In this document: positions 20,564 through 57,345 of the stretch, piece after piece
Position numbering within the stretch: the first letter of the stretch is position 1
Layout of the letters: every line of letters starts with the position of its first letter
Assembly (NCBI GenBank): GCA_965243285.1
Contig: OZ251537.1
Coordinates: forward strand, 2,713,484 to 2,777,483
Length of the DNA stretch: 64,000 nt
Reading direction: 5' to 3'
Source of the DNA: Candidatus Poriferihabitaceae bacterium
Lineage (GTDB): Bacteria > Pseudomonadota > Gammaproteobacteria > Arenicellales > Poriferihabitantaceae
Notes under the pieces: model-generated
Databases searched by the model: none
The model's input: the letters and a program-made list of their open reading frames with translations, nothing else
What the model was told of the DNA's origin: nothing
Made by a program: the position numbers and the translations under genes

Positions 20564-22063
20564 ATGAACTCCCATGTTCGTGTTTATCGACCCGTTTCGA
20601 TGAAAATCACCACGGCGCGCATGTTGGCATCGGCGCTCGCCGCCTTGGCCTTGGTTTTTGCGGCCTCGAGTTACGCCGCGCAACCGCATGCCGCCGCTGG
20701 CTTGGCGGCCATCGATGTAAACGATGGCTTTGCCGATTTAGTGAGCGCGGTAAAACCGGCCGTGGTCACCATCGCCGGCGAGCGCCGGGCGTCGACAAGC
20801 CGGCAACCATTCGGGCCGCAAACGCCGGGGTTTGAAGAATTTTTCCGCCGTTTTTTTAATGCCCCGCCCGGCGGGCCAGCGCCCAAACAACCGCCTAAGG
20901 CGCACTCCATCGGCTCCGGATTCATCATCGATGCAAGCGGCTTGGTGGTGACCAACTATCATGTCATCGAACATATCGACAACATCGAAGTAGAATTGGA
21001 CGATGGCACGCGCTGGCCGGCGACGCTCAAAGGCGGCGACCAGCGCTCCGATTTGGCGTTGTTGCAAATCACCGCCGAAGGGCCGTTGCCGTATGTGAAA
21101 TTCGGCGATTCGGACGCCGCCCAAGTGGGTGATTGGGTCATCGCCATCGGCAACCCGTTCGGCCTCGGCGGCACCACCACCAGCGGCATTATTTCCGCCC
21201 GTGGGCGTGACATTCGGCGCGACCAGTTAACCGATTTCATCCAAGTCGATGCCCCCATCAATAGCGGCAATTCCGGCGGCCCGCTGTTCAACACGCGCGG
21301 CGAAGTCATCGGCATAAACACCGCCATCGCCACCCCCACCGGCGGCAATGTCGGCATCGCGTTCGCCATTCCAGCCTCCTTAGCGAGCCGCATCATCGCC
21401 CAGTTGCGCGACAAAGGCGTGGTGAATCACGGCTTTTTGGGGGTGTATTTTCAGGCCCTCAGCGCTGAAATCGCCGAGCATCTAGGGCTGGAAGAAGCGC
21501 TCGGCGCCTTGATAGCCGAAGTCGTAAAAGACAGCCCGGCGGAAAAAGCCGGCATCAAAGCCGGCGATGTCATCCTCACCTATGATGGCCGGGCGATAAA
21601 AACCATCAGCAATTTGTCCAAGTATGTGGCCCTAACCGAGCAACAAGCCCGCGTCGACATCGAAGTTTTTCGCGACGGCAAGCGCCTCACTTTGGAGGTC
21701 GCCATCGGCAAACGCGCCGCGGAAAAACAAGATTCGACCAGCCCGGATGAGGTCTCGAAATCCAACCACCTCAGCCTATCGGTAGCCGCCTTGGACGACG
21801 CCAACCGCCAAAAATATCGCCTCGATAAAAACGCGCAAGGCGTGGTCATCGTCGCGGTGATGCCGGGCGGCGCCGCGGCCCAGCAAAATTTACGCCCCGG
21901 AGACCTCATCAAACGCGTAGGCAAAACCCCCGTGAACTCCCCAGCGGAAATGCATACCGCTATCGACAGGTACTTAACCGCCGATAAAAAATCGGTGTTG
22001 CTGCTAACCGAACGCCATGGCGAAACGCGCTTCGTGGTACTGCCCATAGAGCGCCAGGATTAA
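20564..22063 (+). CDS. Periplasmic serine endoprotease, DegP/DegQ/HtrA family, two PDZ domains
   Basis: Catalytic triad context TNYHVI, DLALLQI and GNSGGPL. A signal peptide and two PDZ-like C-terminal domains are present. Confidence 0.9.
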   Translation: MNSHVRVYRPVSMKITTARMLASALAALALVFAASSYAAQPHAAAGLAAIDVNDGFADLVSAVKPAVVTIAGERRASTSRQPFGPQTPGFEEFFRRFFNAPPGGPAPKQPPKAHSIGSGFIIDASGLVVTNYHVIEHIDNIEVELDDGTRWPATLKGGDQRSDLALLQITAEGPLPYVKFGDSDAAQVGDWVIAIGNPFGLGGTTTSGIISARGRDIRRDQLTDFIQVDAPINSGNSGGPLFNTRGEVIGINTAIATPTGGNVGIAFAIPASLASRIIAQLRDKGVVNHGFLGVYFQALSAEIAEHLGLEEALGALIAEVVKDSPAEKAGIKAGDVILTYDGRAIKTISNLSKYVALTEQQARVDIEVFRDGKRLTLEVAIGKRAAEKQDSTSPDEVSKSNHLSLSVAALDDANRQKYRLDKNAQGVVIVAVMPGGAAAQQNLRPGDLIKRVGKTPVNSPAEMHTAIDRYLTADKKSVLLLTERHGETRFVVLPIERQD

Positions 22064-22212
22064 TCGATGCCATCCGCAGCGCGCTTTGGTTTTTTAAATG
22101 AAAACCGACGCCGCGCTGCGGAATTTTCATGCTGAAAATTCACAACTGCCCGCCATTCACAACCGCCATGCAATTTAAATTGCATGTATTCAAATTTCAG
22201 GCATTAAAATTA

Positions 22213-22823
22213 GGGATTTATATACCTAAATCTGCACGGTGGGTTTGGCTTTTGTTTTACTCCCCCAGATGAAGAGGGTGTGCGAAAAGCCCCCTTGTTT
22301 GATATTTTACTCTGAAATCATTTATCAAAAAAGGTACAATAGGTGCTTACAACATTCTATTGATGCATTCAATCACTTGCCATCAAAATATTATCATGCC
22401 TTTCACAAAATCATACACCGCGCATCTATCTACGCAGTGCAGTATGTTCAATAGCATGCCGCAAGTTGCCAAGAAGGCGATGACTCTTGCTGCCAACGGT
22501 AGAAAATTTATAACCGGCGAGCCTAATAAATTGTATTACGGCACCTTGTCGTTGAAACAATATTTAGAAGAAAATGGCGAGCGCGATGCTTTTATTATTC
22601 GCGACCTAAACTCATTAGACCAAATTAGGGATGAGGTAAAAACCAACAGCCGAGTCAAAAGCCAAAGCGAAAAGCCAAAGCGAAAAGCCAAAGCGAAAAG
22701 CCAAAGTCCCCCCACCAAATCAGCCCGAGCCTATCGGCTCGGACAGATTTGACTCCCCCCAGATGAAGCGGGGGAGTAAAACAAAAGCTAAAGCCGCCGT
22801 GCAGATTTAGGTCTATAAATCCC
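22213..22823. mobile_element. Internally deleted IS1182-like element (MITE-like) retaining only the transposase N-terminus
   Basis: Roughly 60-bp terminal inverted repeats (GGGATTTATATACCTAAATCTGCACGGTGG...TTTTACTCCCCC). The internal ORF matches the first ~90 aa of the transposase at 23849, then runs into microsatellite. Confidence 0.75.
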
Positions 22824-22828
22824 TTAAA

Positions 22829-22867
22829 AAACGCCAATCGAACTGCAGATTTAGGTCTATAAATCCC
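22829..22867. repeat. Additional solo element end (AACGCCAATCGAACTGCAGATTTAGGTCTATAAATCCC)
   Basis: Same sequence as the right end of the MITE at 9620-9657. Confidence 0.7.
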
Positions 22868-22932
22868 ATATATAATGTTGCCTTGCTCGCATTAATGTCA
22901 TCGTGCGCCCACTTCATCGCATCGAAAAATCC

Positions 22933-23583
22933 ATGAGCACATTCCGCCCCTTAGACGATAAGGCGACCGCCGCCACCGATGCCATTTTAGATTTTTGGTT
23001 CGGTCGCGATGCCTACGCCCGCACCGCCACCGCCATCGCGGGCGAACAAAGCGCGCTGTGGTGGTCTAAAAATGACGCCACCGATGCCGACATCCGCCGC
23101 CGTTTCGAAGCCTTCAGCGCCGCTGCGGTCAGCGGCCAACTGGCCGATTGGGAGGGCACGCCGCGCGGTTTGCTGGCGCTGATTATCTGCACCGACCAAT
23201 TTCCGCGCAATATGTATCGCGACACCGCCCAAGCCTTCGCCGCCGATGCCGCGGCTTTGAAATTCGCCAATCAATTTGGTCGAATGAGCGGCAGCCTGTG
23301 GACACAACCCATCCAACGCGTGTTCGCCTATTTGCCTTTCGAGCATAGCGAGCGCATGGACGACCAAATTTCATCGGTAAGTGGCTATGAAATGCTGGTC
23401 CACCGCGCCGCCCGCGCATCGGCGGAAGAAATTGCCTTGTTCGAAGGCTATCTCGATTTCGCGCGCCAGCATCACGCCATCATCAAACGCTTCGGGCGCT
23501 TTCCGCATCGCAATAAAATTCTCGGGCGGCAGTCGACGGCGGAAGAGCTCGAATTCCTAACCCAGCCGGGGTCTTCTTTTTAA
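22933..23583 (+). CDS. DUF924-family protein
   Basis: ILDFWFG..., GLLALIICTDQFPRNMYR and AFAADAAAL resemble the DUF924 signature as I recall it. Confidence 0.75.
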   Translation: MSTFRPLDDKATAATDAILDFWFGRDAYARTATAIAGEQSALWWSKNDATDADIRRRFEAFSAAAVSGQLADWEGTPRGLLALIICTDQFPRNMYRDTAQAFAADAAALKFANQFGRMSGSLWTQPIQRVFAYLPFEHSERMDDQISSVSGYEMLVHRAARASAEEIALFEGYLDFARQHHAIIKRFGRFPHRNKILGRQSTAEELEFLTQPGSSF

Positions 23584-23605
23584 TACATGTAATTTGCATA
23601 TAGGT

Positions 23606-25083
23606 AATTTTAGGGGGCTGCGTTTGTTTTTTGCTTTTGATTTGGCTTTTGGCTTTTGCTGTTAACGCTTTACTCCCCCCAGAGGAAGAGGGTGTGCGAA
23701 AAGCCCCCTTGTTTGATATTTTACTCTGAAATCATTTATCAAAAAAGGTACAATAGGCGCTTACAACATTCCATTGATGCATTCCATTGATGCATTCCAT
23801 CAATGCATTTTATTGATGCATTCAATCACTTGCCATCAAAATATTATCATGCCTTCCACAAAATCATACACCGCGCATCTATCTACGCAGTGCAGTATGT
23901 TCAATAGCATGCCGCAAGTTGCCAAGAAGGCGATGACTCTTGCTGCCAACGGTAGAAAATTTATAACCGGCGAGCCTAATAAATTGTATTACGGCACCTT
24001 GTCGTTGAAACAATATTTAGAAGAAAATGGCGAGCGCGATGCTTTTATTATTCGCGACCTATTAGAAGAACAAAACTGGCGCGCCTTTGAGTCCACCTAT
24101 TCACACACCGGCAGAGCGCCCTATGCGCCGATGGCGATGATGGGGTTGCTCGTGCTGGCCATCATCAACGGCGTGCATTCGCTGCGCGGGATAAAGAAAT
24201 TCGCTGGTTTTAATTTAGCGGCGCAGTGGGTTTCTGGCGGCATTTGCCCGCAGTATAAAAGTTCGCTGCCGTGAGAAAAGCTGCGGTGTTTTTGATAAAA
24301 GAAATTTTATTTTTGACGAGCAGAGCAATAGTTATACATGCCTTGCTGGCCATCGACTTATAGAGACCTATAGAGAAGCAAACAGAGTCAGATACGCGAG
24401 TAAAAGTTGTGGCGCTTGCGCGCTGAAATCGAAGTGCACTACATCAAAAACAGGTGGTGTTATATATCGCTATCATGGCGATGCGGAAATGGCTGCTTGG
24501 AGGGCAAGCATGGCAGGAGAAGACCCGCGGAAATATTCCAACTTACGCGCTGCATCAGTTGAGACAGTATATTCAATGATACGCGGCGTGCAGCAGTTGA
24601 ATAGATTTAGGCGGCGTGGATTAGCCGCGGTGCGTCTTGAATTTGGCATGCACGCGGTGGCTTATAATGTCAATCGGTTAATAGCGCTATCGCAGCCAAA
24701 AATGATCTAAAAACATGTTTTTTAGCCACATAAAAGAATGTAATAACGATTTACTTGTTGTAATAGCCATTTATTTTGCATACTTTAGTTAACTATAATA
24801 AAAATTATTAATAAATTATTAATAAATTATTGATATGTGATATTCCTCACTTTTTTTTCAATAATCACCCGCAGAAAAATCAAAATACAGCATTTTACTT
24901 TGCGATATTAAAATAACCAAAACCGAGTTTTAGAACACCCTCATTAAAGCGGGGGAGTAAAGCGTAACAGCCAAAGCTAAAAGCCAAAAGCGAAAAATCA
25001 AAGCGAAAAATCAAAGCGAAAAGCCAAAGCGAAAAATCAAAAGCCAAATCAAAACCACTGTGCAGATTTAGATATATAAATCC
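23606..25083. mobile_element. IS1182-family insertion sequence remnant (left outermost end missing, catalytic core deleted)
   Basis: The subterminal repeat GCTGTTA(A)CGCTTTACTCCCCC occurs in inverted orientation at both ends. The right end finishes with TGCAGATTTAGATATATAAATCC. Confidence 0.75.
23849..24710 (+). pseudogene. IS1182-family transposase, internally deleted and frameshifted
   Basis: The N-terminal DUF772-like region (GRAPYAPMAMMGLLVLAIINGVHSLRGI...NLAAQWVSG) stops at 24274. The C-terminal part (Cys-rich CGACALKSKC, then VETVYSMIRG...RFRRRGLAAVRLEFGMHAVAYNVNRL) lies in another frame. The DDE core is absent. Confidence 0.75.
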
Positions 25084-25232
25084 TTTACATATGTATATGC
25101 GCCAGGCGCGTCGGCTGGAATTTTGCGCTGGCCGTAGTGTGCTGGTAGTATTGCGGCTGCGACCGGCCACGCAGTGGTGCGCGGTTTAACGCCGCCCGGG
25201 TCGCCGCCAATCCATCTCATATTCGCCCTGAA

Positions 25233-28053: not shown

Positions 28054-28608
28054 ATGGGCGATGTACACAGCGCCGCCGCGGCGCCCTTGCGCGGCGCCAT
28101 AGTCGCCATGACATCGCAGCGCGTTATCGGCGTGGACGGCGGCTTGCCATGGCATTACCGCGCCGATTTAATGCGCTTCCGCCAACGCACCATGGGCTGC
28201 GCCATCATTATGGGGCGGGTCACTTGGGATTCCATCGGCGGCAAAGCGCTGCCTGGTCGGCGCAACATGGTGTTGAGTCGATCGGGCCGCTTAGTGGATT
28301 CGGGTGACTCAGGTGACTCAGGTGATTCGGGCGACGCTTCGCCAGTCGAACACTATGGCGATTTGGATGCCGCCTTCGCCGCTTGCCACAACATGGATGC
28401 ATGGGTTATCGGCGGCGCGCAAATTTATCGAGCGGCGCTGTCGCGGCTCAACTTATTGGATGTAACCTATGTGCCGGATATCATCAGCGGCGCCGCGACG
28501 CGTTTTCCGCGCATCGATGGGGCGCATTGGCGAGAAGTCGAGCGCTGCGTTTTACCGGGTAAGCCAGTGCTCACCAACATCATTTATCACCGCATCCCTA
28601 CTCCGTAA
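28054..28608 (+). CDS. folA: Dihydrofolate reductase
   Basis: VIGVDGGLPWH, GRVTWDSIG and VIGGAQIY, with an in-frame DSGDSGDSGDSGD repeat insert. The start may be the Met at 28108. Confidence 0.9.
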   Translation: MGDVHSAAAAPLRGAIVAMTSQRVIGVDGGLPWHYRADLMRFRQRTMGCAIIMGRVTWDSIGGKALPGRRNMVLSRSGRLVDSGDSGDSGDSGDASPVEHYGDLDAAFAACHNMDAWVIGGAQIYRAALSRLNLLDVTYVPDIISGAATRFPRIDGAHWREVERCVLPGKPVLTNIIYHRIPTP

Positions 28609-28667
28609 ATCGGCCCGGTAAATCCACCCCGTAAATCGGCCCGGTAAAACCACCCCGTCATGCATCC

Positions 28668-28982
28668 ATGGGCAAACGCGTTTTCAACACCTACCACGCC
28701 TCGGCGGCGGAAATCCACGGCGTAAAAACCGCGCTTGCCGCCGCCCACATCCCCCACTACGAAACTCACAAAGGCAAATGGGGCGTCGGCTCGGCCGCCC
28801 TGTGGGCAACCGACCCCGCCGACTACCCCGCCGCCCGAGCCGCCATCGATGAATTCCAGCACCAATGGGCAGCCCAAGTACGCCAACAAGCCACCCCCAC
28901 CACCATCAACTGGGCAAAACTCCCCGCCCTACTCGCCACCATCGCCGTGGTGTTGTATTTGACTTTGTTTTGGTATTTCTAA
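28668..28982 (+). CDS. Small hypothetical protein with a C-terminal hydrophobic helix
   Basis: ORF with codon usage like its neighbours and a C-terminal LPALLATIAVVLYLTLFWYF helix. No family was confidently recognised. Confidence 0.4.
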   Translation: MGKRVFNTYHASAAEIHGVKTALAAAHIPHYETHKGKWGVGSAALWATDPADYPAARAAIDEFQHQWAAQVRQQATPTTINWAKLPALLATIAVVLYLTLFWYF

Positions 28983-30115
28983 CCGGTAGCGAGCGGTTTT
29001 ATGGCGATTTTATTCGCCTTTTTCTTCTCGCCCTTGCACATTTCTTCGACGAGTTGCATCGCTTTTTGCAGACGCTCCACAGTGGCATCAAAATCAATGG
29101 TGCCGTCTTCCTTGGTCGACAAGTGTTTATCACTATTGTTCTCAAACGATATAACTGCGAAATTAATTGTCTTTGCAGTAGTCGTCTTTGCTGGATTAAT
29201 AAAACGAGCCGGTTTATTCACCTTAATGCCATCAACAAGCGGCGCGGTTTTTTTGGCTAGTTTTAATAAAGACCACAAGATATCTCCTTTCGTCTCTTCA
29301 CCATTGTGTTTGCGCGCACGAATTGTCAATCTCTTTTTAAGATCGATATTCAAATAAACCTCGTAACCTAATGCTTGCCAAAAAGTCTTTGGCTGCCACC
29401 ATAAATGCAGCTCACCATGACCTACATATCCCCAACGCTTAGCCCATACATCGTTACCAATTCTACCGTCATTCTCAATGGCGAGAAAATATCCTTCGAC
29501 CGCATGCTTGCTCCATTCTTTGCATGGAAAAAGCATATTGGTGTCGTCTTCAATTTTCTGCAAATTTTTCCGAAATTCCTCAATGATGTTATTCCCCGTT
29601 TCCATGTGCCGACCGAGAACTTTTAGCAAATCTCATCTGAAAAAAAGCCCATCACAATTGTCATTTCCTTTTGTCGGCCAGGTGTGTTTTGATTCATTGC
29701 CAGTTTTTAAATACACGGCAACAGAACCTGGAAATTTTTTCTTATATCTCTTGATTTGGTTGGAGTGTTTTTTGGCATTCACCTTGTCTTCAATGATCAA
29801 GTGCTTTGATGCATTGATTGTGACTAAAACATCGACATTTTTTACCTGGGTTTTAACCAGCACAGTGTCGATTTTTTTGACTGGGCTTGTGTCGTGTTCC
29901 GCAACCGCTTCCAACAAAGCACGCAACAAATCATCGCCCAAAGCATGGAGTTTTGGCTCGGTGTTTTTATATTCAGGGTCAGCCCAGGCGAGTACATAAG
30001 CCAGCGCTGCATCTTGCGACAATTCGGAAGTCGCATACTCAAAAATGTTGGGGGTTTTCATGGGTAGTATCCTCCAAGTTAAGATGGAAAAATCGAAAAA
30101 GTGGGTGCCAATCAA
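28979..30115 (-). pseudogene. PD-(D/E)XK nuclease-family gene (about 378 codons) interrupted by one in-frame TGA at 29633-29635
   Basis: The N-terminal part has NIFEY..SE..QDAALAYVLAW, NVDVLV and IIEDKVNAKKHSNQIKRY (D...ExK...Q..RY). ORFs 29633-30115 and 28979-29629 share one frame, separated only by TGA-GAT. AT-rich. Confidence 0.6.
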
Positions 30116-30910
30116 TCCACCGCTAATTTATCTTGGCGTTGGTCTTGGCACATTTTTTGGACTAGTTGCATGGCGTCTACCAAGCGCTGCACAGTGGCAT
30201 CGAAATCGATGATGTCGTCTTTATCGGTCGCCAAGTACTGGTCGCTAGCGCCTGCGAAAGATAGGGTCGCCACATTGGATGTTATGGCTGATTTAAATAG
30301 AGTCGGCTGAGTCACTTTAATGCCACCGATAAGCGGAGCGCAATTTTGGGCGCTTTCGAATAAAGCCTGCAATTTATCGACTTTTACCGCGTCACCTGCT
30401 AAATCGCGGGCGCGAATGGCTAGTCCTTTGCGATTATCTTTGCGATTATCTTTGCGCAAATGTTGCTCATCTATCTGCAAATAAATCTTGCACCCCAACG
30501 CTTGCCAACAGGGTTTTGGATGCCCCCAAAAAACCTGCCGGCCGTGTGGCCGCGCGGCGAGATATTCCCACTTTTTAAAGTAATCCGCGCCACCCAATCT
30601 CGGCTCATTCTCCAAAGCATTAAAATAACCTTGGTAGGGTTTACCTTCATGATTTTCGCAATACTCGACAAAATTCTCATAATCACTATCATGGGTTGAC
30701 ACATGGGTTGACACATGGGTTGACATGGTAATGCTCGAATTTATGTTTTTATAGTCGGAATCAGAATCCGCTCGACAAAAATTATGCAACATATCAGCGC
30801 CTAATGCATGCATTTTTAGGTGAGTTTTTTCGTATCTTTGGTGTGCCCATGCGAACACCTAGGCCAGCCCGGTATAGGCCGGCGCGCAGTCAAGAATATG
30901 CGGGGTTTTC
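30112..30910 (-). pseudogene. Tandem paralogue of the PD-(D/E)XK gene, lacking the nuclease core and carrying an in-frame TAG
   Basis: MKTPHILD...TAG...FAWAHQRYEK..LKMHALGADML parallels the neighbour's N-terminus. The C-terminal 190 aa align (CWQALGCKIYLQID, APLIGGIKV, DFDATVQRLVDAMQLV). The D/ExK segment is replaced by a STHV repeat. Confidence 0.55.
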
Positions 30911-30950
30911 ATTAGCAATATCCAAATTAAAATACAAAAGTTGACTTACC

Positions 30951-31961
30951 TTACGCTTGATAACGCGCCATCATTTCGGCAGTCAATGCGGCGAATTCTT
31001 TTCGCAGTTCGGGCGGGCCGAGAACCTTCACCTGGCTGCCGAAACCCAATAGCCACCAGCGGAGTTCGGCGGTGTCGGCGATGGTGGCTGTTAGCAACGC
31101 GGCGGCGTCTTTTTGCGGGGTGATTTTTTGCTCGGCGGACAATTTTAATTCGGTCAAGTGGAAGGCGGCGCCACCGTAAAACAAAGCCCGCAGTTTGATG
31201 TTTTTATCCGATGCCGGGTAGGAAAATCCGTGTTCTTGTTCCACATATTGGGCGAGGTCGAAATCGGCGGACGGCTGGGCATCTTCATCTAACATCTCGG
31301 CGGTGCGCATACGATGCATGGCGTATTGGCGCGGCTCGGGGTAATCCCAGGCGCTTGCCACCAGGTAGATGATGCCGTCTTTCATGACGATTCCTAACGG
31401 CGTTAATGTTAGTTGTTGGACGGATTTTTTTCCTTTGCTTTGGTAGTCCACCGCGCATTTTTTATCGTTCAACAACGCTTCATAAACCGCATTTTGCACT
31501 TGGGGTTGAATGCCGGGCGGCGTGAGCATGGGGCCGCGTTTGATGATGCGAATTTTGTCCGACCATTTTCCTAAGCGGGTGGTTTGTAACACTGTTGCGG
31601 CTTTTTGGAAGTACGGCGCGAGAAAATCTTGCGTCACCTGTGGCATGACCGGCGTCAAATAGTCGGCGGTTAGTTGGAAGGCGAGCGCGGTGGCGGCGCC
31701 CATGTGGGGGATTTGAATCAACTTAGCATTGGGCCTAAAAAACCATCGCTGGGCGCGGCCGTGTTGCGTGCAATCCAGCGGAAAGAGCTCCACTAATTTG
31801 ATGAGATCGCGCTGTATGGTACGAATGTTGACTTTATATTCGGGCCTATCGCCCAGCAATTTATCGCGCAACTCCGCAGTGCTGATGCCTTTGGGTTTTG
31901 TTGGTATCATCTGCAGCAAGGTGATGTAACGCAAGGTGGTTTCGGCGGCGGTTTTTGGCAT
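30951..31961 (-). CDS. HTH-WYL-WCX transcriptional regulator
   Basis: N-terminal wHTH (ISTAELRDKL...NIRTIQRDL), central WYL-type region (DGIIYLVASAWDYPEPRQYAMHRM) and a C-terminal WWLLGFGSQVKVLGPPELR, typical of the PafBC/BrxR/CapW-like architecture. Confidence 0.8.
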   Translation of the reverse strand: MPKTAAETTLRYITLLQMIPTKPKGISTAELRDKLLGDRPEYKVNIRTIQRDLIKLVELFPLDCTQHGRAQRWFFRPNAKLIQIPHMGAATALAFQLTADYLTPVMPQVTQDFLAPYFQKAATVLQTTRLGKWSDKIRIIKRGPMLTPPGIQPQVQNAVYEALLNDKKCAVDYQSKGKKSVQQLTLTPLGIVMKDGIIYLVASAWDYPEPRQYAMHRMRTAEMLDEDAQPSADFDLAQYVEQEHGFSYPASDKNIKLRALFYGGAAFHLTELKLSAEQKITPQKDAAALLTATIADTAELRWWLLGFGSQVKVLGPPELRKEFAALTAEMMARYQA

Positions 31962-31974
31962 GGGGACTTACCTG

Positions 31975-32070
31975 GCGATTGACTTGGCGATTGATTCATC
32001 GATTAACTTATCGATTAACTTATCGATCAACTTATCGATTAACTTATCGATTAACTTATCGATCAACTGA
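31975..32070. repeat. Eight tandem 12-bp units (consensus ATCGATTAACTT), each carrying an ATCGAT palindrome, immediately upstream of the WYL regulator start
   Basis: Read directly: two degenerate units (GGCGATTGACTT, GGCGATTGATTC), then six near-perfect ones. Three 13-14 bp CGCGTGATT-type units follow, up to 32110. Confidence 0.9.
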
Positions 32071-32106
32071 GCGTGATTTAAGTTCGCGTGATTAGTGTCG
32101 CGTGAC

Positions 32107-33567
32107 TTAGGCCGCGGATAAAAACTCAACCAACGCCACCATGGCTTCGGTATCGCGCTGGCAATAGGCGCGCAGGTCGGCGGCTAAGGCTTGGGCGCGC
32201 GCCGGCGCGGTGCGCGGGTGGATGATCTCCACATAGGCGCGGCCGGCGGCGTTGCCGTCTTGCACTTCGCCGAGGTCGCGGTAATCGAGGTGCGCGGCGA
32301 TGGTCGGCAGCACCGCCTTTATCGACCACGAGCCGTGCATGTCGCGGTGGTAATAATTCGCGCGCGTCACGGGCAATAAATCCACCAAGCGCGCGATGAC
32401 GCGGGAGATAGCGGGCGCTAAATCGGGAAAGCGCGCCGCCAAATTGCCCAGGCATGTTTTTTCATACGCGCTATAGACGAAAATCGCGCCGCTATCTTGC
32501 AGCGCCGCCAGTAAGGTTTCGATAAAGGCGCGCATGGGCGCCGCGCCGCTGGTATCTAAAAATTCGCTATGCGTCAACGCACTGTTTTTTTGTTCGCTGT
32601 GGCATGACCATTGAAACGGCAACGCCTGATAGGGACGCGTGTCTTTCCAAATCGGCACCGCGAAGGCGATGGTTTCGAAATCCAAATAATAACGCGGATA
32701 GGTACATGACGCGATTGTTACCGCGGCGGCCGGGTTTAACTCGGCTTGATCATTGCACGTCGCCCGCCGCACCCGTTCGAGTTTGGCGGTAGGTAATCGC
32801 CCGGGCGGAATGTCGCGAATGTCGTGTATGCCTTCGGCTTGCAGTTGGGCTGCGAGTGCGTTGGCGTTTTTGCCCGGCAAATCGGTGACCGGATAGCCGC
32901 TGCGTGGCTCGCCGCAGTGATGTTTGAACGGGCAGGCATATGGTGAATCACAATGCGCGCCGACCTCGATGGCCGGCTGCGCGCCGCCCAATACTTTTTT
33001 GAAGCGCGCCACCCAAGCCGGCACTTCGGGTTTCAACTCGGCGATGGCGGCGGTGAGATTGGCGTGGGTGAATAAGCCGCGATAATCGCCATCGCCGCCA
33101 TAAATGAAATGTTTGTTGATGTGCGCCAATTCCACCTGCGCCACGGCCACGCCGGCGCCTTCCAACACCCAGGCTTGCACCGCGCAATCCGGCGCGTAGG
33201 GCGCTTTTACGCTGGTGCTGGATTTAACCTCGATTAAGCGATAGCCGGCCGGCATTTTTTCCAGCACATCGGCGCGCACTAATACGCCTTGATGGGAGAA
33301 AGTGGCTTCGAATAAGGTCTGCTGCGGCGCGTCTTTTAGGCGCTGTTGGGTCTCCGCCAATGCGCGCGCCAGGTTGCCGGATGGCTCAATAAAATGGCCA
33401 TCTCCATACAGCGCGCGCGCCACCACATTGACCTCCTCACCCGCAGATAAGCGATGCTCCACCGCCGCCGACACCGCTTTCAACTGCGGTTGATGCACCT
33501 CAAGCCACAGCCGTTTTTCACATTGTCTGCCGGACATGATTTTTGATTTGGAGAGGCGGTGGCTCAT
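32107..33567 (-). CDS. DUF2779-family protein (Cas4/RecB-like PD-(D/E)XK nuclease N-domain plus a DFET-motif C-domain)
   Basis: LSKSKIMSGRQCEKRLWL N-terminus, LIEVKSST (ExK), Cys cluster CDSPYACPFKHHC, then YYLDFETIAFAVP...PFQWSCH. This matches my recollection of DUF2779. Confidence 0.7.
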   Translation of the reverse strand: MSHRLSKSKIMSGRQCEKRLWLEVHQPQLKAVSAAVEHRLSAGEEVNVVARALYGDGHFIEPSGNLARALAETQQRLKDAPQQTLFEATFSHQGVLVRADVLEKMPAGYRLIEVKSSTSVKAPYAPDCAVQAWVLEGAGVAVAQVELAHINKHFIYGGDGDYRGLFTHANLTAAIAELKPEVPAWVARFKKVLGGAQPAIEVGAHCDSPYACPFKHHCGEPRSGYPVTDLPGKNANALAAQLQAEGIHDIRDIPPGRLPTAKLERVRRATCNDQAELNPAAAVTIASCTYPRYYLDFETIAFAVPIWKDTRPYQALPFQWSCHSEQKNSALTHSEFLDTSGAAPMRAFIETLLAALQDSGAIFVYSAYEKTCLGNLAARFPDLAPAISRVIARLVDLLPVTRANYYHRDMHGSWSIKAVLPTIAAHLDYRDLGEVQDGNAAGRAYVEIIHPRTAPARAQALAADLRAYCQRDTEAMVALVEFLSAA

Positions 33568-33606
33568 GGTTTTTTGTGTTTTGTGCGTTGCGCGTGGTTT
33601 GGGGAA

Positions 33607-33963
33607 TTACAAACCATAGACAGAGATAAAAAAATCACCATCATCAGTATTTTCAACTTCATAGGTGATGTCGAGATCATCTCTCCTATCACTACCTAAT
33701 GGTGTGAAATTAATTTTAGCGGCGCATTCATGAGCGCCGGTCTGATCATTGGTGTTTTGGGTACGGACGCTATCCAAAGTAACATTAAGCGAATCAAAGG
33801 TCTGGTTGTGATGATCGAGTTTTGGACCAACATGATCTTCGAATATTTCGAGAACCAAATCTTTGGCATCATCGGAGTTGCATTTAGGTACGGAATTCGA
33901 GCAACCGGCCAATACTGCGGTGGCGGCGATGAATGCAAACAAACTTAGGCGATGATGAATCAT
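33607..33963 (-). CDS. Small putative lipoprotein
   Basis: Lipobox LFAFIAATAVLAGCS after the Met at 33963. AT-rich; no family recognised. Confidence 0.5.
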   Translation of the reverse strand: MIHHRLSLFAFIAATAVLAGCSNSVPKCNSDDAKDLVLEIFEDHVGPKLDHHNQTFDSLNVTLDSVRTQNTNDQTGAHECAAKINFTPLGSDRRDDLDITYEVENTDDGDFFISVYGL

Positions 33964-34079: not shown

Positions 34080-35153
34080 TTAATCCGGTTTTTGACCAAT
34101 AAAAATCGCCCGCCTCGGCGCTGGGTGGCCGTCGATGGTTTTGGCGGCATCAGCGGGGTCGAGAAAATCGGTTAGCGATTGAAATTGCATCCATTCGGTG
34201 CGGCGCTGTTCGGCGGCGGTGGTGAGGCTGATGTCGACGCAGCGGATGTTCACGGCGCCGGCCTGGCGCAGCCATTTTTCCAGCGCCAGGGGGGACGGGA
34301 TGGCGCGCACATTGCGCATTTTGGCGTAGCGCGCGGCCGGGCGCAGCACGCTGTCGACGCCGCCGGCCACGCTCAAGGTTTCGACCACCACTTCGCCGCC
34401 GGGGCGGGCCGCCGCCAACAATTCGCGCAGGTGGTCGAGCGGATGGCCGCGGTGATACAACACGCCCATGGAAAATACGGTGTCGAAGCCGTCCGCGCTG
34501 TCGCCGCGATATCCCATCGCGCCCATCGCCCCCCTCCCCCCAATGCGCGGAAGTTGCTCGCATTTGAGCGGCAACATGAAGGCCGCGGCGCCCCGGCAAT
34601 AACGTTTTAGCGCCGCGAATTGCGCCAGGAATAATTGACTCGGGTCGATGCCTAACGCCAGCCGCGCCCCTTGCCCGAGCATGCGCCACAGGCTATAGCC
34701 GTTGCCGCAGCCCACATCCAACACGCGGCGACCGCGCAAATCACTCAGCGCCGCCGCCAGCCGCTGCCACTTCAGATTCGAGCGCCACTCGCTGTCTACC
34801 ACTAAGCCGAATAACTCGAAGGGCCCCTTGCGCCATGGGCTCAATTGCAGCAAGGCGGCTTTGAGTTGCGCGCGCGCGGCGGCGGTGGCGTCTTGCGGCG
34901 CGCCGATACGGATGGCGGCGGCGTTGAAATCATAGCCCGAGGGCGTTATCTCCGGCAGGTGGATTAGCCGGTTTTGCCACGCCGCGCGATGTCCATGGGG
35001 GGCTGCTTTGTAGGCGGCGCGGCTGCTGTGGATGAGCGGCTGCGCCCACGCCCCTAAGCCGGCGGCTTGCAACGCCGGACGCAAACCGCGCGCCGGCGCT
35101 GCTAACATGGCGGCGGCTTCGGCGCCAGATTCAGCGCCCGTCGGCGGGCTCAT
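34080..35153 (-). CDS. cmoB: tRNA U34 carboxymethyltransferase CmoB
   Basis: SPWRKGPF, RVLDVGCGNGY and its position directly after cmoA. Confidence 0.9.
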   Translation of the reverse strand: MSPPTGAESGAEAAAMLAAPARGLRPALQAAGLGAWAQPLIHSSRAAYKAAPHGHRAAWQNRLIHLPEITPSGYDFNAAAIRIGAPQDATAAARAQLKAALLQLSPWRKGPFELFGLVVDSEWRSNLKWQRLAAALSDLRGRRVLDVGCGNGYSLWRMLGQGARLALGIDPSQLFLAQFAALKRYCRGAAAFMLPLKCEQLPRIGGRGAMGAMGYRGDSADGFDTVFSMGVLYHRGHPLDHLRELLAAARPGGEVVVETLSVAGGVDSVLRPAARYAKMRNVRAIPSPLALEKWLRQAGAVNIRCVDISLTTAAEQRRTEWMQFQSLTDFLDPADAAKTIDGHPAPRRAIFIGQKPD

Positions 35154-35959
35154 TTCAACGCCAAAAAAGCGCAGAAATTAAAGGCCTGAAACCATTGGCT
35201 AACTGGTGAAAACCCGACTGCCCGCAACCGCGTGAGATGCACGGCGGCGCTGTCGAGCGCCATAACTTTTTCCAGCGCGGCTCTTTTTTGCGCGATTTCC
35301 AGCGCGCTATAGCCGCAAGCCATTTTGAAATGGGCGTGCAATGCGTGCTGCAAACTGCCCTCGGCGGCATCGTCAAAGCGAATTTTTTCCGCCAAAACCA
35401 GCGCCCCGCCGGGTTTTAGGCCGGCATAGATGCGCGCCAACATGCGTCGGCGGTCGGCCGGCGGCAAAAATTGCAGGGTGAAATTCAACACCACCAAACT
35501 GGCGTTTTTTAGCTCGACATCGCGCACATCGCCATGCCATAACGCCAAGCGCTCGGCGGCGATAACACCGCGCAAATTATCGCCGCAGGCTTGCAACATG
35601 GCGGCCGAATTATCCACGCCGATGAAGCGCGCCGACGGCGCCACGCGCGCATGCATGGCTAACATGGCGGCGCCTAAGGAGCAACCCAAATCATAGATGG
35701 TGGAATCGGCCTGGGAATCGGCCTGGGAATCGACCTGGGTATAGCGTTGTGCGATAACGCCGAGCAAGGCAAGCAGCGTTTCATAGCCCGGCACCGAGCG
35801 GCGAATCATGTCCGTAAAAACCGCCGCCACGCGCTCATCGAACACGAAATCGGCCACGCGCGGCCGTTTTTCGGCGTAAATTTTATCGCTATGGGGTCGG
35901 TCGCCAGGGTCGGCGGAGTTGCCAGCTTCGCCCGAGTCGATGCGGTCGCTACAGCGCAT
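35150..35959 (-). CDS. cmoA: Carboxy-S-adenosyl-L-methionine synthase CmoA
   Basis: FDERVAAVFTDMIRRSVPGY, YDLGCSLG, and a 4-bp overlap with cmoB. An in-frame DSQADSQADS repeat is present. Confidence 0.9.
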   Translation of the reverse strand: MRCSDRIDSGEAGNSADPGDRPHSDKIYAEKRPRVADFVFDERVAAVFTDMIRRSVPGYETLLALLGVIAQRYTQVDSQADSQADSTIYDLGCSLGAAMLAMHARVAPSARFIGVDNSAAMLQACGDNLRGVIAAERLALWHGDVRDVELKNASLVVLNFTLQFLPPADRRRMLARIYAGLKPGGALVLAEKIRFDDAAEGSLQHALHAHFKMACGYSALEIAQKRAALEKVMALDSAAVHLTRLRAVGFSPVSQWFQAFNFCAFLALK

Positions 35960-36378: not shown

Positions 36379-37440
36379 TTATATCACCGGCTTAATCGGC
36401 GCCTTGGTGGATGATTTTGTCGCCGATTTCATGGGTGATTTCATGGGTGATTTCATGGACGATTTCGCATGCGTAAAAATCGCCACCAATTCTTGCGCCG
36501 CCAAGGTCGCCGGCACGGCGCCGCTGCCCACTTGCTCTAACATGCCGTCCAGGGCCGCCGCCACCGCTGGATTTTTGGTCAATTCCGCCAGCAATTGCTC
36601 GCGGGTTTCATTCCACAGCCACGATTGGGCTTGGCGGCGGCGGCGTTTTGCCAACTCGCCGTCGGCTGCTAACAGGCGGCCATACTGGTCAATTTTTTCT
36701 TGCACCTCGTCTAGGCCGGTATCGCACAGCGCCGAGACTTGCATCACCGGCGTGTGCCAGGCGGGGTGGCGGCGCTGCATTAACGCCAGTGCGCGCTGCA
36801 GGTCGGCGGCGGCGAGGGCGGCCGGGTGGCGCAAATCACCATCGGCCTTATTGACCATGATGAGGTCGGCCAACTCCATGATGCCGCGCTTGATGCCTTG
36901 CAATTCATCGCCGCCGACCGGCGACACCATCAGCAAAAAAACATCGGTCATCGCCGCCGCCATGGTCTCCGACTGCCCGACGCCGACCGTCTCTAAGATG
37001 ATGAAATCGAACCCAGCGGCTTCGCACATCAACAGCGCCTCGAAGGTGCGCCGCGCCACGCCGCCCAAGGTTTGCCCGGCCGACGATGGGCGGATAAAAG
37101 CGCGCGGATTGGCGGCCAGCGTCTCCATTCTGGTTTTATCGCCCAATATGGAACCGCCGCTGATGGCGGAAGAGGGGTCTACGGTCAACACCGCAACGCG
37201 ATGGCCGCGCGCGATGACGCGCTTGCCGAAGGCCTCGATAAAGGTGGATTTGCCGACCCCGGGCGCGCCGGTTATGGCCACGCGAATCGACGCGCCGGTG
37301 TACGGCATGGCTTCGCGCAGCAAGGCCTCGGCTTCGCGGCGATGCGAATCAAGGGTGGATTCGCATCGCGTAATGGCACGCGCCAGGGTGCGCCGGTCAC
37401 CGCCGCGCAGTTTGGCTAAGGTCACTGCGGTGTCGGTCAT
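36379..37440 (-). CDS. meaB: Methylmalonyl-CoA mutase-associated G-protein MeaB/ArgK
   Basis: P-loop GAPGVGKST, ETVGVGQSE and NKAD. The C-terminal tail carries a KSPMKSPMKS repeat. Confidence 0.9.
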   Translation of the reverse strand: MTDTAVTLAKLRGGDRRTLARAITRCESTLDSHRREAEALLREAMPYTGASIRVAITGAPGVGKSTFIEAFGKRVIARGHRVAVLTVDPSSAISGGSILGDKTRMETLAANPRAFIRPSSAGQTLGGVARRTFEALLMCEAAGFDFIILETVGVGQSETMAAAMTDVFLLMVSPVGGDELQGIKRGIMELADLIMVNKADGDLRHPAALAAADLQRALALMQRRHPAWHTPVMQVSALCDTGLDEVQEKIDQYGRLLAADGELAKRRRRQAQSWLWNETREQLLAELTKNPAVAAALDGMLEQVGSGAVPATLAAQELVAIFTHAKSSMKSPMKSPMKSATKSSTKAPIKPVI

Positions 37441-56915: not shown

Positions 56916-57105
56916 GGGGGTGGGGTGGATGGTCGGGTGGGTGGATGGTCGGGTGGGGTGGATGGTCGGGTGGATAGTCGGGTGGATGGTCAGGGGGATG
57001 GTCGGGTGGGTGGATGGTCGGGTGGGTGGATGGTTAGGGTGGATGGTCAGGTGGATGGTCAGGGGGATGGTCGGGTGGGTGGATGGTCAGGGTGGATGGT
57101 GGATG
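56916..57105. repeat. About 190-bp minisatellite of 12/16-bp units (GGGTGGATGGTC with optional GGGT), G-rich on the + strand, starting 7 nt from the hemA start codon
   Basis: Read directly across 56916-57105. It is C-rich on the hemA sense strand. Confidence 0.9.
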
Positions 57106-57345
57106 AATTAATGGTCGGCGGATTGCCACCCCAAAAAACCAGAACCTATCCATGCATTAAATCACCCCGCACCGCCGAAAACCCCATTTTACCTTATGCA
57201 GAACACCCCAATTTTTGCCCAGTCGACACTTTTCACCACTTTTCATCCATAAAACCGAAGTCACTCCCCGTTTTCGGCGTTATTCGCCGTTTTTGATAGC
57301 CCGCTAAACAGCGCTGGGTAACCAGCCTTACAGAGGGCTATTTAC

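What the first reader, a model, noticed from the sequence alone, without database searches (positions are those of the whole stretch)
28979..33963. Candidate WYL-controlled nuclease defence locus in an AT-rich island between folA and cmoB
Seen in sequence:
- Five same-strand genes interrupt a housekeeping context: lipoprotein, DUF2779 dual-nuclease-like gene, HTH-WYL-WCX regulator, and two tandem PD-(D/E)XK-family paralogues.
- GC content is visibly mosaic across the locus.
- The regulator sits at the head of the nuclease genes, with a repeat array directly upstream of it.

Established knowledge: HTH-WYL-WCX regulators such as BrxR and CapW sit at the head of, and repress, phage-defence operons (BREX, CBASS and others).

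Inference: this could be an uncharacterised defence module with the layout regulator -> single PD-(D/E)XK effector, with the Cas4-like DUF2779 protein as a possible partner. I do not recognise this gene combination as any named system. In this strain both effector copies look inactivated, so the locus may be a fossil.
Basis: partly seen in the sequence, partly recalled or inferred. Interest (0 to 1): 0.75.

Follow-up and report, generated by a model that had tools for sequence, protein, structure and literature searches.

The report
Decayed DUF2779–WYL–PD-(D/E)XK nuclease gene cluster
Between cmoB and folA lies a recurrent but uncharacterised cluster: an intact double-nuclease gene, an intact DNA-sensing-type regulator gene, and two dead copies of a restriction-like nuclease gene, so this genome holds a half-decayed example of a candidate anti-phage (or DNA-damage) module.

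Summary
Five minus-strand genes lie between cmoB and folA: a lipoprotein, DUF2779 (a Cas4-like plus DEDD exonuclease fusion), a WYL-WCX regulator, and two PDDEXK_4-family genes. Both PDDEXK_4 genes are broken. par1 has one in-frame TGA at codon 143. par2 has a TAG at codon 18 and has lost the catalytic core.

- Four syntenic relatives carry WYL→PDDEXK_4←folA or DUF2779–WYL–PDDEXK_4 at the same site, so the cluster is old in this lineage. Only the PDDEXK_4 and lipoprotein genes are AT-rich.
- The tightest link is DUF2779→WYL, where stop and start overlap in relatives.
- DUF2779 also sits next to PDDEXK_4 genes in at least five distant lineages, often with a double-AAA ATPase.
- The slot after WYL holds known or candidate defence genes elsewhere (Uzume, PDC-M15, GmrSD, Mrr-like).
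- The regulator resembles DriD/PafBC in sequence, not BrxR/CapW.
- The PDDEXK_4 family matches PADLOC candidate PDC-S26 only in its nuclease domain.
- The repeat array is one of about 50 such arrays in the window and splits a normally overlapping gene junction.

Most likely this is an unnamed, probably ssDNA-responsive, multi-nuclease defence module whose effector is lost here. No function was tested.

The parts
33607..33963 (-). Small lipoprotein gene (118 aa, LAGC lipobox), GC 0.42. It occupies the position where relatives L081, L083 and L167 have an unrelated 358-393-aa protein 'X'. Probably variable cargo rather than part of the module.
   Evidence: no Pfam hit; GC; no remnant of X in the window; a relative lies near PDDEXK_4 in L025
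32107..33567 (-). DUF2779 gene (486 aa), intact. The N-terminal Cas4-like PD-(D/E)XK domain has D100, E113, K115 and Cys16/206/212/218. The C-terminal RNase-H-like DEDD exonuclease domain has D296, E298, Y468 and D472. GC 0.59, similar to the host.
   Evidence: searches (PF11074, 137 bits; weak Cas4; invariant columns; >6144 homologues at 50-64% identity), PMC13621843 and PMC3985635 for the domain reading
31976..32068 (.). 12-nt tandem array (7.8 copies, each unit carrying an ATCGAT palindrome), followed by a second short array at 32071-32116. Together they form the 145-nt spacer between DUF2779 and WYL. In relatives these two genes overlap by 8 nt or are 1-2 nt apart.
   Evidence: junctions
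30951..31961 (-). WYL-WCX transcription regulator gene (336 aa), intact, GC 0.53. The N-terminal winged helix is inferred only.
   Evidence: WYL, WCX; PADLOC WYL model covers aa 11-319; weak HTH_DeoR, Arg_repressor or HTH_11 hits in 4-5 of 47 homologues each, none in this protein; closest solved relatives are DriD and PafBC
30112..30912 (-). par2, a pseudogene of the PDDEXK_4 family. It has a TAG at codon 18 (30859-30861) and a degraded N-terminal motif. The nuclease core (par1 residues 58-171) is deleted. Two in-frame 12-nt repeats lie at 30426-30456 and 30690-30725. The C-terminal domain is about 40% identical to par1.
   Evidence: (no Pfam hit)
28979..30061 (-). par1, a PDDEXK_4-family gene (360 codons) interrupted by one in-frame TGA at 29633-29635 (codon 143). 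The catalytic D77, E91 and K93 are present and the frame is otherwise open. GC 0.42. Its closest intact homologue, P0002 (44% identity), occupies the same WYL→gene←folA slot in L171.
34080..35153 (-). cmoB, the left boundary of the locus. The order PCC-MeaB-glyoxalase-cmoA-cmoB ... folA-thyA-PBP-DnaJ is shared with L083, L167, L168 and L169.
28054..28982 (+). folA (28054-28608) and a 104-aa host-GC ORF (28668-28982) that converges on par1. This is the right boundary of the locus.

Best explanation
The locus is the local copy of a recurrent, unnamed multi-nuclease module.

Conserved core. The core is DUF2779 (a Cas4-like PD-(D/E)XK nuclease fused to a DEDD 3'-5' exonuclease) encoded directly upstream of a wHTH-WYL-WCX regulator. 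It is followed by one or more members of a roughly 350-aa PDDEXK_4 family. These have an N-terminal nuclease domain and a family-specific C-terminal domain with no solved structural match. In other genomes the set is joined by a double-AAA ATPase or by an unannotated protein X.

Proposed mechanism (inferred). The WYL regulator senses single-stranded DNA, as DriD, PafBC, CapW, SiwR and BrxR do. That ssDNA could come from damaged or restricted foreign DNA, possibly generated by the linked DUF2779 exonuclease. The regulator then changes transcription of the operon and raises the level of the PDDEXK_4 nuclease, which would be the DNA-cutting effector.

History in this lineage. The module has sat between cmoB and folA since before these genomes diverged. 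The position after WYL behaves as a cargo slot that also accepts known or candidate defence genes.

State in this genome. The two PDDEXK_4 genes are dead (one nonsense codon; one stop plus core deletion). DUF2779 and WYL are intact. The module is therefore a half-fossil: sensor and processor kept, effector lost.

Shown: gene content, inactivating lesions, synteny, recurrent linkage, defence-type neighbours.
Inferred: ssDNA sensing, the direction of regulation, the effector role, and defence as the biological function.
For: Linkage of DUF2779 and WYL.
- All three close WYL homologues whose contigs were looked up (53-56% identical; L081, L082, L083) have DUF2779 immediately upstream with an 8-nt stop/start overlap, in three different genomic contexts. 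L167 has the same pair 2 nt apart.
- In the 80 WYL-anchored metagenome loci, DUF2779 is the commonest neighbour. It lies directly upstream on the same strand in 8 loci, and about 40 loci have more than 1.5 kb of upstream sequence.

Linkage of DUF2779 and PDDEXK_4.
- DUF2779 is within 10 kb in 7 of 80 PDDEXK_4-anchored genome loci. It is the neighbouring gene, or one short ORF away, in L011, L035, L043 and L066, and one gene away in L019.
- Two DUF2779 homologues chosen only for lying on large contigs are both flanked by PDDEXK_4 genes and a double-AAA ATPase.
- Even if every genome had one DUF2779 gene, about 0.5% of random 20-kb windows would contain it. That figure is my estimate.

Linkage of WYL and PDDEXK_4.
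- Directly adjacent in L167, L171 and L079. L083 has one gene (UzuA) plus a scar of a WYL 3' end in between.
- The same slot holds two PDDEXK_4 subtypes that are only 30% identical to each other.

Synteny and age.
- Identity to the window is 45-75% for housekeeping proteins, 58-60% for DUF2779, 50-53% for WYL and 30% for PDDEXK_4.
- Cargo has low GC; DUF2779 and WYL have host-like GC.

Defence context.
- UzuA in L083 (E = 4.5e-51); PDC-M15A and PDC-M15B in L081 (E = 4.5e-45 and 9e-33); GmrSD plus an AAA ATPase in L138; an Mrr-like gene in L082.
- Other members of this WYL clade sit next to a type III restriction enzyme, MkoA-like proteins and UvrD/GajB-like helicases.
- PDDEXK_4 neighbours include ParE toxins, Mrr, ResIII, SLFN/AlbA_2, HNH and a retron reverse transcriptase.
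- The nuclease domain matches PADLOC candidate PDC-S26.
- C-terminal domains are swapped between paralogues in L174 and L175.

ssDNA as the WYL ligand: PMC11662680, PMC10853764, PMC10693628, PMC13622015.

Intactness: invariant catalytic residues of DUF2779 are present in the window's copy.
Against: - No member of the module has been tested for defence.
- PADLOC has no model for the combination.
- The PDDEXK_4 family matches PDC-S26 only over profile positions of about 40-200 out of 400, at modest E-values. PDC-S26 is itself only a candidate.
- DUF2779 is unusually conserved for a defence gene: 50-64% identity across phyla and more than 6000 homologues.
- DUF2779 is retained in all five syntenic genomes, including two that lack both WYL and PDDEXK_4.
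- A DUF2779 member is quasi-essential in JCVI-syn3.0 (PMC13621843). All of this fits a housekeeping or repair role.
- The regulator's closest solved relatives are activators of the DNA-damage response.
- Most PDDEXK_4 genes stand alone among unrelated neighbours, including RecA, GlyQ and Nuo genes.
- Several linked loci come from related genomes (Latescibacterota; the syntenic gammaproteobacteria), so the counts overstate independence.
- My ORF calling in the fetched loci was a crude greedy method.
Confidence: 0.45

Rival explanations
1. This is a DNA-damage response or repair module, not immunity. A DriD/PafBC-type WYL activator senses ssDNA from the cell's own damaged chromosome and induces DUF2779, a Cas4/AddB-like plus MrfB-like exonuclease that processes DNA ends. 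The PDDEXK_4 proteins would be accessory repair or recombination nucleases that this strain could afford to lose.
For: - The WYL profile matches DriD at E = 2e-17 and PafBC at E = 3e-11. BrxR scores only E = 1.1 and CapW gives no hit.
- DUF2779 is highly conserved, has host-like GC, and is kept in all five syntenic genomes.
- The DEDD half resembles the mitomycin-repair exonuclease MrfB, and a family member is quasi-essential in syn3.0 (PMC13621843).
- WYL activators that control adjacent stress genes are known: SiwR (PMC10693628) and DriD (PMC10853764).
Against: - The genes that replace or join PDDEXK_4 in the same slot are defence genes or candidates: UzuA, PDC-M15A/B, GmrSD and Mrr-like.
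- Other members of the WYL clade pair with restriction, Mokosh-like and Gabija-like helicase genes.
- The PDDEXK_4 genes have low GC, are replaced by 30%-identical alleles and swap C-terminal domains. That is typical of immunity genes, not repair genes.
- Defence-linked CapW and BrxR also sense ssDNA (PMC11662680, PMC13622015), so the ligand does not discriminate between the two readings.
Confidence: 0.25
2. The linkage is positional rather than functional. DUF2779 is an ordinary core gene that happens to border a defence-gene integration hotspot. WYL→PDDEXK_4 is an independent two-gene cassette (regulator plus single-gene effector, like PADLOC's single-gene candidate PDC-S26) that landed there among other cassettes.
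For: - L168 and L169 keep DUF2779 at the site without WYL or PDDEXK_4.
- Cargo beside DUF2779 differs between genomes.
- L083 carries a scar of a second WYL 3' end, which suggests cassette insertion by recombination.
- L079 has WYL→PDDEXK_4, and phmmer found no DUF2779 in the 13.6 kb fetched.
- Most PDDEXK_4 genes stand alone.
Against: - DUF2779 and WYL overlap by 8 nt in three unrelated genomic contexts, including one beside transposases. They therefore travel together as a unit.
- DUF2779 lies next to PDDEXK_4 without WYL in Latescibacterota, Campylobacterota, Thermodesulfovibrio and Thiomicrorhabdus. A single lineage-specific hotspot cannot explain that.
Confidence: 0.2
3. The PDDEXK_4 genes are remnants of a selfish or mobile element (a solitary restriction-like or homing-type nuclease, or phage-derived genes) that is decaying after insertion, with no role for the host.
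For: - Low GC and pseudogenisation of both copies.
- Transposase fragments lie elsewhere in the window at 23774-24710.
Against: - Only 3 relatives were found in 2.9 million viral contigs.
- No integrase, transposase, tRNA or repeat boundary flanks the locus.
- Intact orthologues occupy the same slot in syntenic genomes, which points to long-term retention.
Confidence: 0.05

Closest known systems
BrxR / CapW-type WYL repressors at defence islands (PMC9122601, PMC9122589, PMC9122588, PMC11662680)
   Same: [quoted passage not shown]
- It is encoded beside nuclease and defence genes.
- Members of its clade sit next to type III restriction, Mokosh-like and helicase genes, and next to Uzume.
- An ssDNA ligand is expected.
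   Different: - It has no significant sequence similarity to BrxR (E = 1.1) or CapW (no hit).
- In relatives it is the second gene of an operon behind DUF2779, not the first gene of the island.
- No inverted-repeat operator was found upstream.
- Whether it represses or activates is unknown.
DriD / PafBC / SiwR WYL activators of the DNA-damage response (PMC10853764, PMC10693628)
   Same: - These are the closest solved relatives by sequence over the WYL-WCX region: E = 2e-17 for DriD and E = 3e-11 for PafBC.
- They control nearby genes that act on DNA.
   Different: The genomic company here is restriction-like nucleases and known or candidate defence genes, not cell-division inhibitors, recA/SOS-type genes or DinB-like enzymes.
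PADLOC candidate PDC-S26 (single-gene PDDEXK_4 candidate; untested as far as found here, mentioned only in PMC11551731)
   Same: They share the PDDEXK_4 nuclease domain. All 11 family members tested hit only PDC-S26 models among nuclease candidates.
   Different: - Matches cover only about positions 40-200 of the roughly 400-position profiles, with E between 1e-5 and 1e-17.
- The C-terminal half is a different domain with no PDB structural match (best Foldseek E = 0.55).
Solo Cas4-like nucleases and the DUF2779 lineage described for JCVI-syn3.0 MMSYN1_0389 (PMC13621843; PMC3985635)
   Same: - The window's DUF2779 has the same two-domain layout of Cas4-like PD-(D/E)XK plus DEDD exonuclease.
- The D/E/K and DEDD-type residues are invariant.
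   Different: - This copy keeps all four cysteines of the Cas4 Fe-S cluster motif, whereas the mycoplasma protein keeps two.
- No CRISPR array or cas gene lies in the locus.
- The links to WYL, PDDEXK_4 and the AAA ATPase did not appear in any of the seven papers of the searched library that mention DUF2779.
Uzume (UzuA) and PDC-M15, which occupy the same slot in relatives
   Same: They sit directly after the DUF2779-WYL pair in L083 and L081. This shows that the position is used for immunity genes.
   Different: They are not present in this window and are unrelated in sequence to PDDEXK_4.

Membership tests
PDDEXK_4 (PF14281) nuclease family | Pfam match above the gathering score | tested here: met
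   par1 scores 30.6 bits against a 22.3-bit cut-off over aa 5-108. par2 has no hit.
PDDEXK_4 (PF14281) nuclease family | Catalytic D ... (D/E)-x-K residues present in an open reading frame | tested here: not met
   par1 has D77, E91 and K93, but a TGA at codon 143 truncates the protein. par2 lacks the whole core.
PADLOC PDC-S26 | Full-length match to a PDC-S26 profile | tested here: not met
   Only profile positions of about 40-200 out of 400 are matched, in par1 and in 10 intact homologues.
DUF2779 (PF11074; Cas4-like plus DEDD fusion) | Pfam match plus conserved Cas4-type D/E/K residues, the four-cysteine motif and the DEDD-type acidic residues | tested here: met
   137 bits. D100, E113, K115, C16, C206, C212, D296, E298, Y468 and D472 are invariant across 26 homologues, and C218 is nearly invariant. 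All are present in the window protein.
CRISPR-associated Cas4 | Encoded within a cas operon or next to a CRISPR array | tested here: not met
   No cas-type ORFs lie between cmoB and folA. No CRISPR-like array appears in the window's tandem-repeat list. The PADLOC Cas4 match is weak, E = 8e-4.
wHTH-WYL-WCX regulators (general architecture) | WYL and WCX domains with an N-terminal winged helix | tested here: inconclusive
   WYL and WCX are clear. The HTH is not detected in this protein, and only weakly in 4-5 of 47 homologues per HTH family. The PADLOC WYL model spans aa 11-319.
BrxR family sensu Picton et al. (PMC9122601) | Significant sequence similarity to BrxR (the paper's criterion was BLASTP E < 1e-5) | tested here: not met
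   The profile of 47 clade members scores E = 1.1 against BrxR 7QFZ and does not hit CapW. DriD and PafBC score 2e-17 and 3e-11.
BrxR family sensu Picton et al. (PMC9122601) | Sits upstream of, and represses, a defence operon, with an inverted-repeat operator before its own gene | tested here: not met
   The gene lies downstream of DUF2779, with overlap in relatives. The only inverted repeats upstream are the self-complementary units of the tandem array. Repression cannot be tested with these tools.
DriD / PafBC-type WYL activators | ssDNA binding by the WYL domain and activation of damage-response promoters | not testable with these tools
   Only sequence similarity over WYL-WCX was shown.
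Anti-phage defence system (any) | Protection against phage or plasmid when expressed | not testable with these tools
   Only guilt by association is available: Uzume, PDC-M15, GmrSD, Mrr-like and type III restriction neighbours.

The most novel reading that the evidence does not exclude
DUF2779, a WYL regulator and PDDEXK_4 nucleases (with optional double-AAA ATPase and protein X) form a previously undescribed immune system. In this reading, a Cas4-DEDD dual exonuclease chews incoming or restricted DNA and so makes the ssDNA signal read by its own co-encoded WYL regulator. The regulator then switches on a PD-(D/E)XK effector whose exchangeable C-terminal domain sets target or trigger specificity. 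That would give the widespread but function-less DUF2779 family (more than 6000 proteins) its first biological role.
Probability: 0.25. Interest if true: 0.75.

Novelty: new variant of a known kind. Interest (0 to 1): 0.5.

Why it matters
WYL regulators are emerging as the common ssDNA-sensing switch of bacterial immunity and of non-SOS damage responses. Their partner genes are therefore a productive place to look for new systems. This locus and its relatives connect three families without an assigned function into one recurrent neighbourhood found across several phyla:
- DUF2779, a very widespread Cas4-like/DEDD fusion;
- a roughly 350-aa PDDEXK_4 subfamily with a C-terminal domain that has no solved structural match;
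- a double-AAA ATPase.

If the neighbourhood is a defence system, it would be one in which the nuclease that processes DNA is encoded in the same operon as the sensor of the product. If it is a repair module, it would give DUF2779 a role in damage processing.

This genome's copy has lost the effector. It is useful mainly as a pointer to intact orthologues such as L167 and L083.

Tried and rejected
- Looking up the window's own proteins (the WYL protein and P0001) in the contig index returned nothing. The source organism is therefore only inferred, as an Arenicellales-like gammaproteobacterium, from relatives named Candidatus Spongiihabitans.
- Foldseek against the PDB gave no significant match for a high-confidence model of an intact PDDEXK_4 homologue (pLDDT 92). 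The best hit was E = 0.011, and the weak hits were to PD-(D/E)XK nucleases such as ACE1, Nt.BspD6I, Can2 and NucS.
- Foldseek also found nothing for the C-terminal domain alone (pLDDT 88, best E = 0.55). That domain stays unassigned.
- Sequence searches of the PDB with DUF2779 and with the PDDEXK_4 profile found nothing.
- NCBIfam gave nothing useful.
- The promoter and terminator scans were at background level.
- No operator-like inverted repeat was found upstream of the lipoprotein, DUF2779 or WYL genes.
- No Rfam family was found in 20000-42000 and no tRNA in the window.
- The window holds no remnant of protein X, UzuA or the AAA ATPase.
- I considered whether par2 might be a genuine short family consisting only of the C-terminal domain. 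I rejected this because it keeps a degraded N-terminal motif with an in-frame stop, and because the 277-aa proteins in L081 and L083 are unrelated to it.
- I considered recoding of the par1 TGA. Nothing supports it.

Full report
WHAT IS IN THE WINDOW

Between cmoB (34080-35153, minus strand) and folA (28054-28608, plus strand) lie five minus-strand genes.
- A 118-aa lipoprotein (33607-33963) with an LAGC lipobox and no Pfam hit.
- A 486-aa DUF2779 protein (32107-33567; PF11074, E = 4e-40; weak PADLOC Cas4 hit at the N-terminus).
- A 336-aa WYL plus WCX regulator (30951-31961).
- Two PDDEXK_4-family genes, which I call par2 (30112-30912) and par1 (28979-30061).

par1 passes the Pfam PDDEXK_4 threshold (30.6 against 22.3 bits). 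It keeps the catalytic D77, E91 and K93. It carries one in-frame TGA at codon 143 (29633-29635). Most aligned homologues have arginine there (FxRRD), so a CGA-to-TGA change is the simplest explanation.

par2 is much more decayed.
- It has a TAG at codon 18.
- The near-invariant ATSELSQDA motif is destroyed.
- The equivalent of par1 residues 58-171, which is the whole nuclease core, is missing.
- Two 12-nt repeats have expanded inside it.

The two copies are only about 40% identical in protein sequence, so they are old paralogues or separate acquisitions, not a recent duplication.

The 12-nt array at 31976-32068 is real. However, one search lists 87 rows (about 50 separate arrays) in the window, many of period 12-13 and several in frame inside housekeeping genes. 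The array alone is therefore not evidence of an operator.

THE PDDEXK_4 FAMILY

par1 belongs to a well-defined family of roughly 350-aa proteins. The protein search found 109 hits, the best intact one 44% identical. The genome collection held more than 551 relatives across many phyla.

A model of an intact member is confident (pLDDT 92). It shows an N-terminal PD-(D/E)XK fold followed by a helical linker and an alpha/beta C-terminal domain. Neither the whole protein nor the C-terminal domain alone (pLDDT 88) has a significant match in the PDB.

In PADLOC, par1 and ten intact relatives hit only the candidate PDC-S26. The hits cover only the nuclease domain (profile positions of about 40-200 out of 400). 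The family is therefore a sibling of PDC-S26, not a member.

Only three relatives were found in 2.9 million viral contigs.

The 141 immediate neighbours of 74 family members are very heterogeneous: 133 Pfam families in all.
- Defence-type or mobile-type proteins: AAA/IetA-like x4, DUF2779 x3, ParE x3, Mrr x2, ResIII x2, SLFN/AlbA_2 x2, HNH x2, WYL x2, and a retron reverse transcriptase.
- Plain housekeeping genes: RecA, GlyQ and Nuo.

The typical family member is thus a stand-alone gene in variable DNA.

RECURRENT PARTNERS

Three neighbour families stand out within 10 kb of the 80 PDDEXK_4 loci: WYL regulators (11 loci), a roughly 700-aa double-AAA ATPase (9 loci) and DUF2779 (7 loci). DUF2779 is the neighbouring gene, or one short ORF away, in four of its seven loci and one gene away in a fifth. 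Thiomicrorhabdus L066 has all four families together.

I then started from the regulator. The three close homologues whose contigs I looked up (53-56% identical) all have DUF2779 immediately upstream, with an 8-nt stop/start overlap, in three different genomic settings.

Among the 80 more distant WYL homologues from metagenomes, about 40 loci have more than 1.5 kb of upstream sequence.
- DUF2779 is directly upstream on the same strand in 8 loci.
- The double-AAA ATPase is the adjacent, divergently transcribed upstream gene in about 7.
- The rest pair with UvrD/GajB-like helicases, MkoA-like proteins or a type III restriction enzyme.
- None of these 80 loci had a PDDEXK_4 gene.

Finally I looked up two DUF2779 homologues chosen only because they lie on large contigs. 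Both are flanked by one or two PDDEXK_4 paralogues plus the AAA ATPase. There the N-terminal nuclease domains are about 70% identical while the C-terminal domains are swapped, one of them to a NucS_C-like domain.

So three pairwise links exist: DUF2779-WYL, DUF2779-PDDEXK_4 and WYL-PDDEXK_4. The DUF2779-PDDEXK_4 link is seen in gammaproteobacteria, Latescibacterota, Campylobacterota and Thermodesulfovibrio. Related genomes inflate the raw counts.

SYNTENY

Five other genomes or contigs share the window's gene order PCC-MeaB-glyoxalase-cmoA-cmoB ... folA-thyA-PBP-DnaJ.
- L167: X-DUF2779-WYL-PDDEXK_4.
- L083: X-DUF2779-WYL-UzuA-(scar of a WYL 3' end)-PDDEXK_4.
- L171, a short contig: WYL-P0002 converging on folA. 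P0002 is the closest par1 homologue.
- L168: DUF2779, a PDC-M15A-like gene and a 199-aa gene, with no WYL.
- L169/L170: only DUF2779, read as one ORF with folA.

Identities to the window are 45-75% for housekeeping proteins, 58-60% for DUF2779, 50-53% for WYL, but only 30% for the PDDEXK_4 genes of L083 and L167. Those two PDDEXK_4 genes are 61% identical to each other.

This gives four conclusions.
- DUF2779 and WYL are old residents of this site with host-like GC.
- The genes after WYL, and the gene before DUF2779, are low-GC exchangeable cargo.
- The cargo slot has been filled more than once by members of the same PDDEXK_4 family. That argues for a functional tie rather than chance.
- The window's 145-nt DUF2779-WYL spacer consists mostly of two tandem arrays inserted where relatives have overlapping or abutting genes.

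THE REGULATOR

Pfam finds WYL and WCX. The winged helix is only weakly visible in some homologues.

A profile of 47 clade members matches solved DriD structures at E = 2e-17 and PafBC at E = 3e-11. BrxR reaches only E = 1.1 and CapW is not found. The protein is therefore not a BrxR-family member by the published sequence criterion (PMC9122601). It is closer to the activator branch.

All characterised branches bind ssDNA through the WYL domain: DriD (PMC10853764), SiwR (PMC10693628), CapW (PMC11662680) and BrxR (PMC13622015). ssDNA sensing is therefore the reasonable expectation. The sign of regulation is open.

DUF2779

The literature describes DUF2779 as a Cas4-like PD-(D/E)XK nuclease fused to a DEDD-type exonuclease. 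It is uncharacterised and is quasi-essential in JCVI-syn3.0 (PMC13621843, PMC3985635).

The window's copy retains every invariant residue seen in 26 homologues.
- The Cas4-type residues D100, E113 and K115.
- Cysteines 16, 206 and 212, plus the nearly invariant C218. Together these make up the four-cysteine motif.
- The DEDD-type residues D296, E298, Y468 and D472.

The family is very large and unusually conserved: more than 6144 hits, with 50-64% identity across phyla.

INTERPRETATION

The best-supported reading is a recurrent multi-nuclease module of DUF2779, WYL and PDDEXK_4, with an optional AAA ATPase and protein X. It is probably switched by ssDNA, and most likely serves immunity. I base the immunity call on the genes that share its cargo slot (Uzume, PDC-M15A/B, GmrSD, Mrr-like) and on the evolutionary behaviour of the PDDEXK_4 genes. 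In this genome the presumed effector genes are dead while DUF2779 and WYL are intact.

The main rival is a DNA-damage or repair module. It is favoured by the DriD/PafBC affinity of the regulator and by the housekeeping-like conservation of DUF2779.

A third reading is that DUF2779 merely borders an integration hotspot.

None of these readings can be settled without experiments. I put them at 0.45, 0.25 and 0.20.

VERDICT

The points that do not hold are the head-of-operon layout, the idea that the whole locus is an island, the BrxR/CapW assignment and the significance of the repeat array.

This is a new variant of a known kind, namely a WYL-associated nuclease locus. It is of moderate interest, chiefly because it points to intact orthologues that could give DUF2779 a function.

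Noticed in passing
window 1-64000; e.g. 28303-28325 (folA), 35702-35739 (cmoA), 36425-36466 (meaB-like), 30426-30456 and 30690-30725 (par2): The window holds about 50 short tandem arrays, many of period 12-13. Many are in frame inside genes, including essential ones, where they add runs such as SGDSGDSGD to DHFR. This looks like a genome-wide repeat-expansion habit.
   Followed up: partly
window 22000-25200: A low-GC patch (0.37-0.47) carries broken transposase-like ORFs (23774-24710) and AAAGCG-type tandem arrays at 22657-22706 and 24959-25048. It is probably a decayed insertion sequence.
   Followed up: no
L083 10152-10259: A 36-codon remnant of a second WYL gene's 3' end (64% identical to the window's WYL C-terminus) lies between UzuA and PDDEXK_4. 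This looks like a scar of cassette insertion by recombination within the regulator gene.
   Followed up: partly
L169 2309-4294 and L170 2302-4287: DHFR and DUF2779 are called as a single 661-aa ORF in a syntenic relative that lacks WYL and PDDEXK_4. It could be a real fusion or a lost stop codon.
   Followed up: no
L081 5310-6449, L083 5419-6495, L167 6845-8026: A 358-393-aa protein 'X' with no Pfam or PADLOC hit overlaps or abuts the start of DUF2779 in three genomes. Relatives lie near WYL genes in L117, L134 and L139. It may be a fourth component of the module. It is absent from the window.
   Followed up: partly
L174 5868-6941; L175 3520-4629, 5853-6941, 8739-9851: PDDEXK_4 paralogues around DUF2779 share N-terminal domains that are about 70% identical but carry swapped C-terminal domains, one of them NucS_C-like. 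This indicates domain shuffling within the family.
   Followed up: partly
L025 8574-9017: A relative of the window's small lipoprotein (phmmer E = 2.6e-14) lies about 1 kb upstream of a PDDEXK_4 gene in a Sulfurimonas MAG. This could be coincidence or a weak link.
   Followed up: no
window 56918-57123 and 59454-59583: These are the largest repeat arrays in the window: GGATGGTCGGGTGG-type units (periods 12-69) and a 33/66-nt repeat.
   Followed up: no
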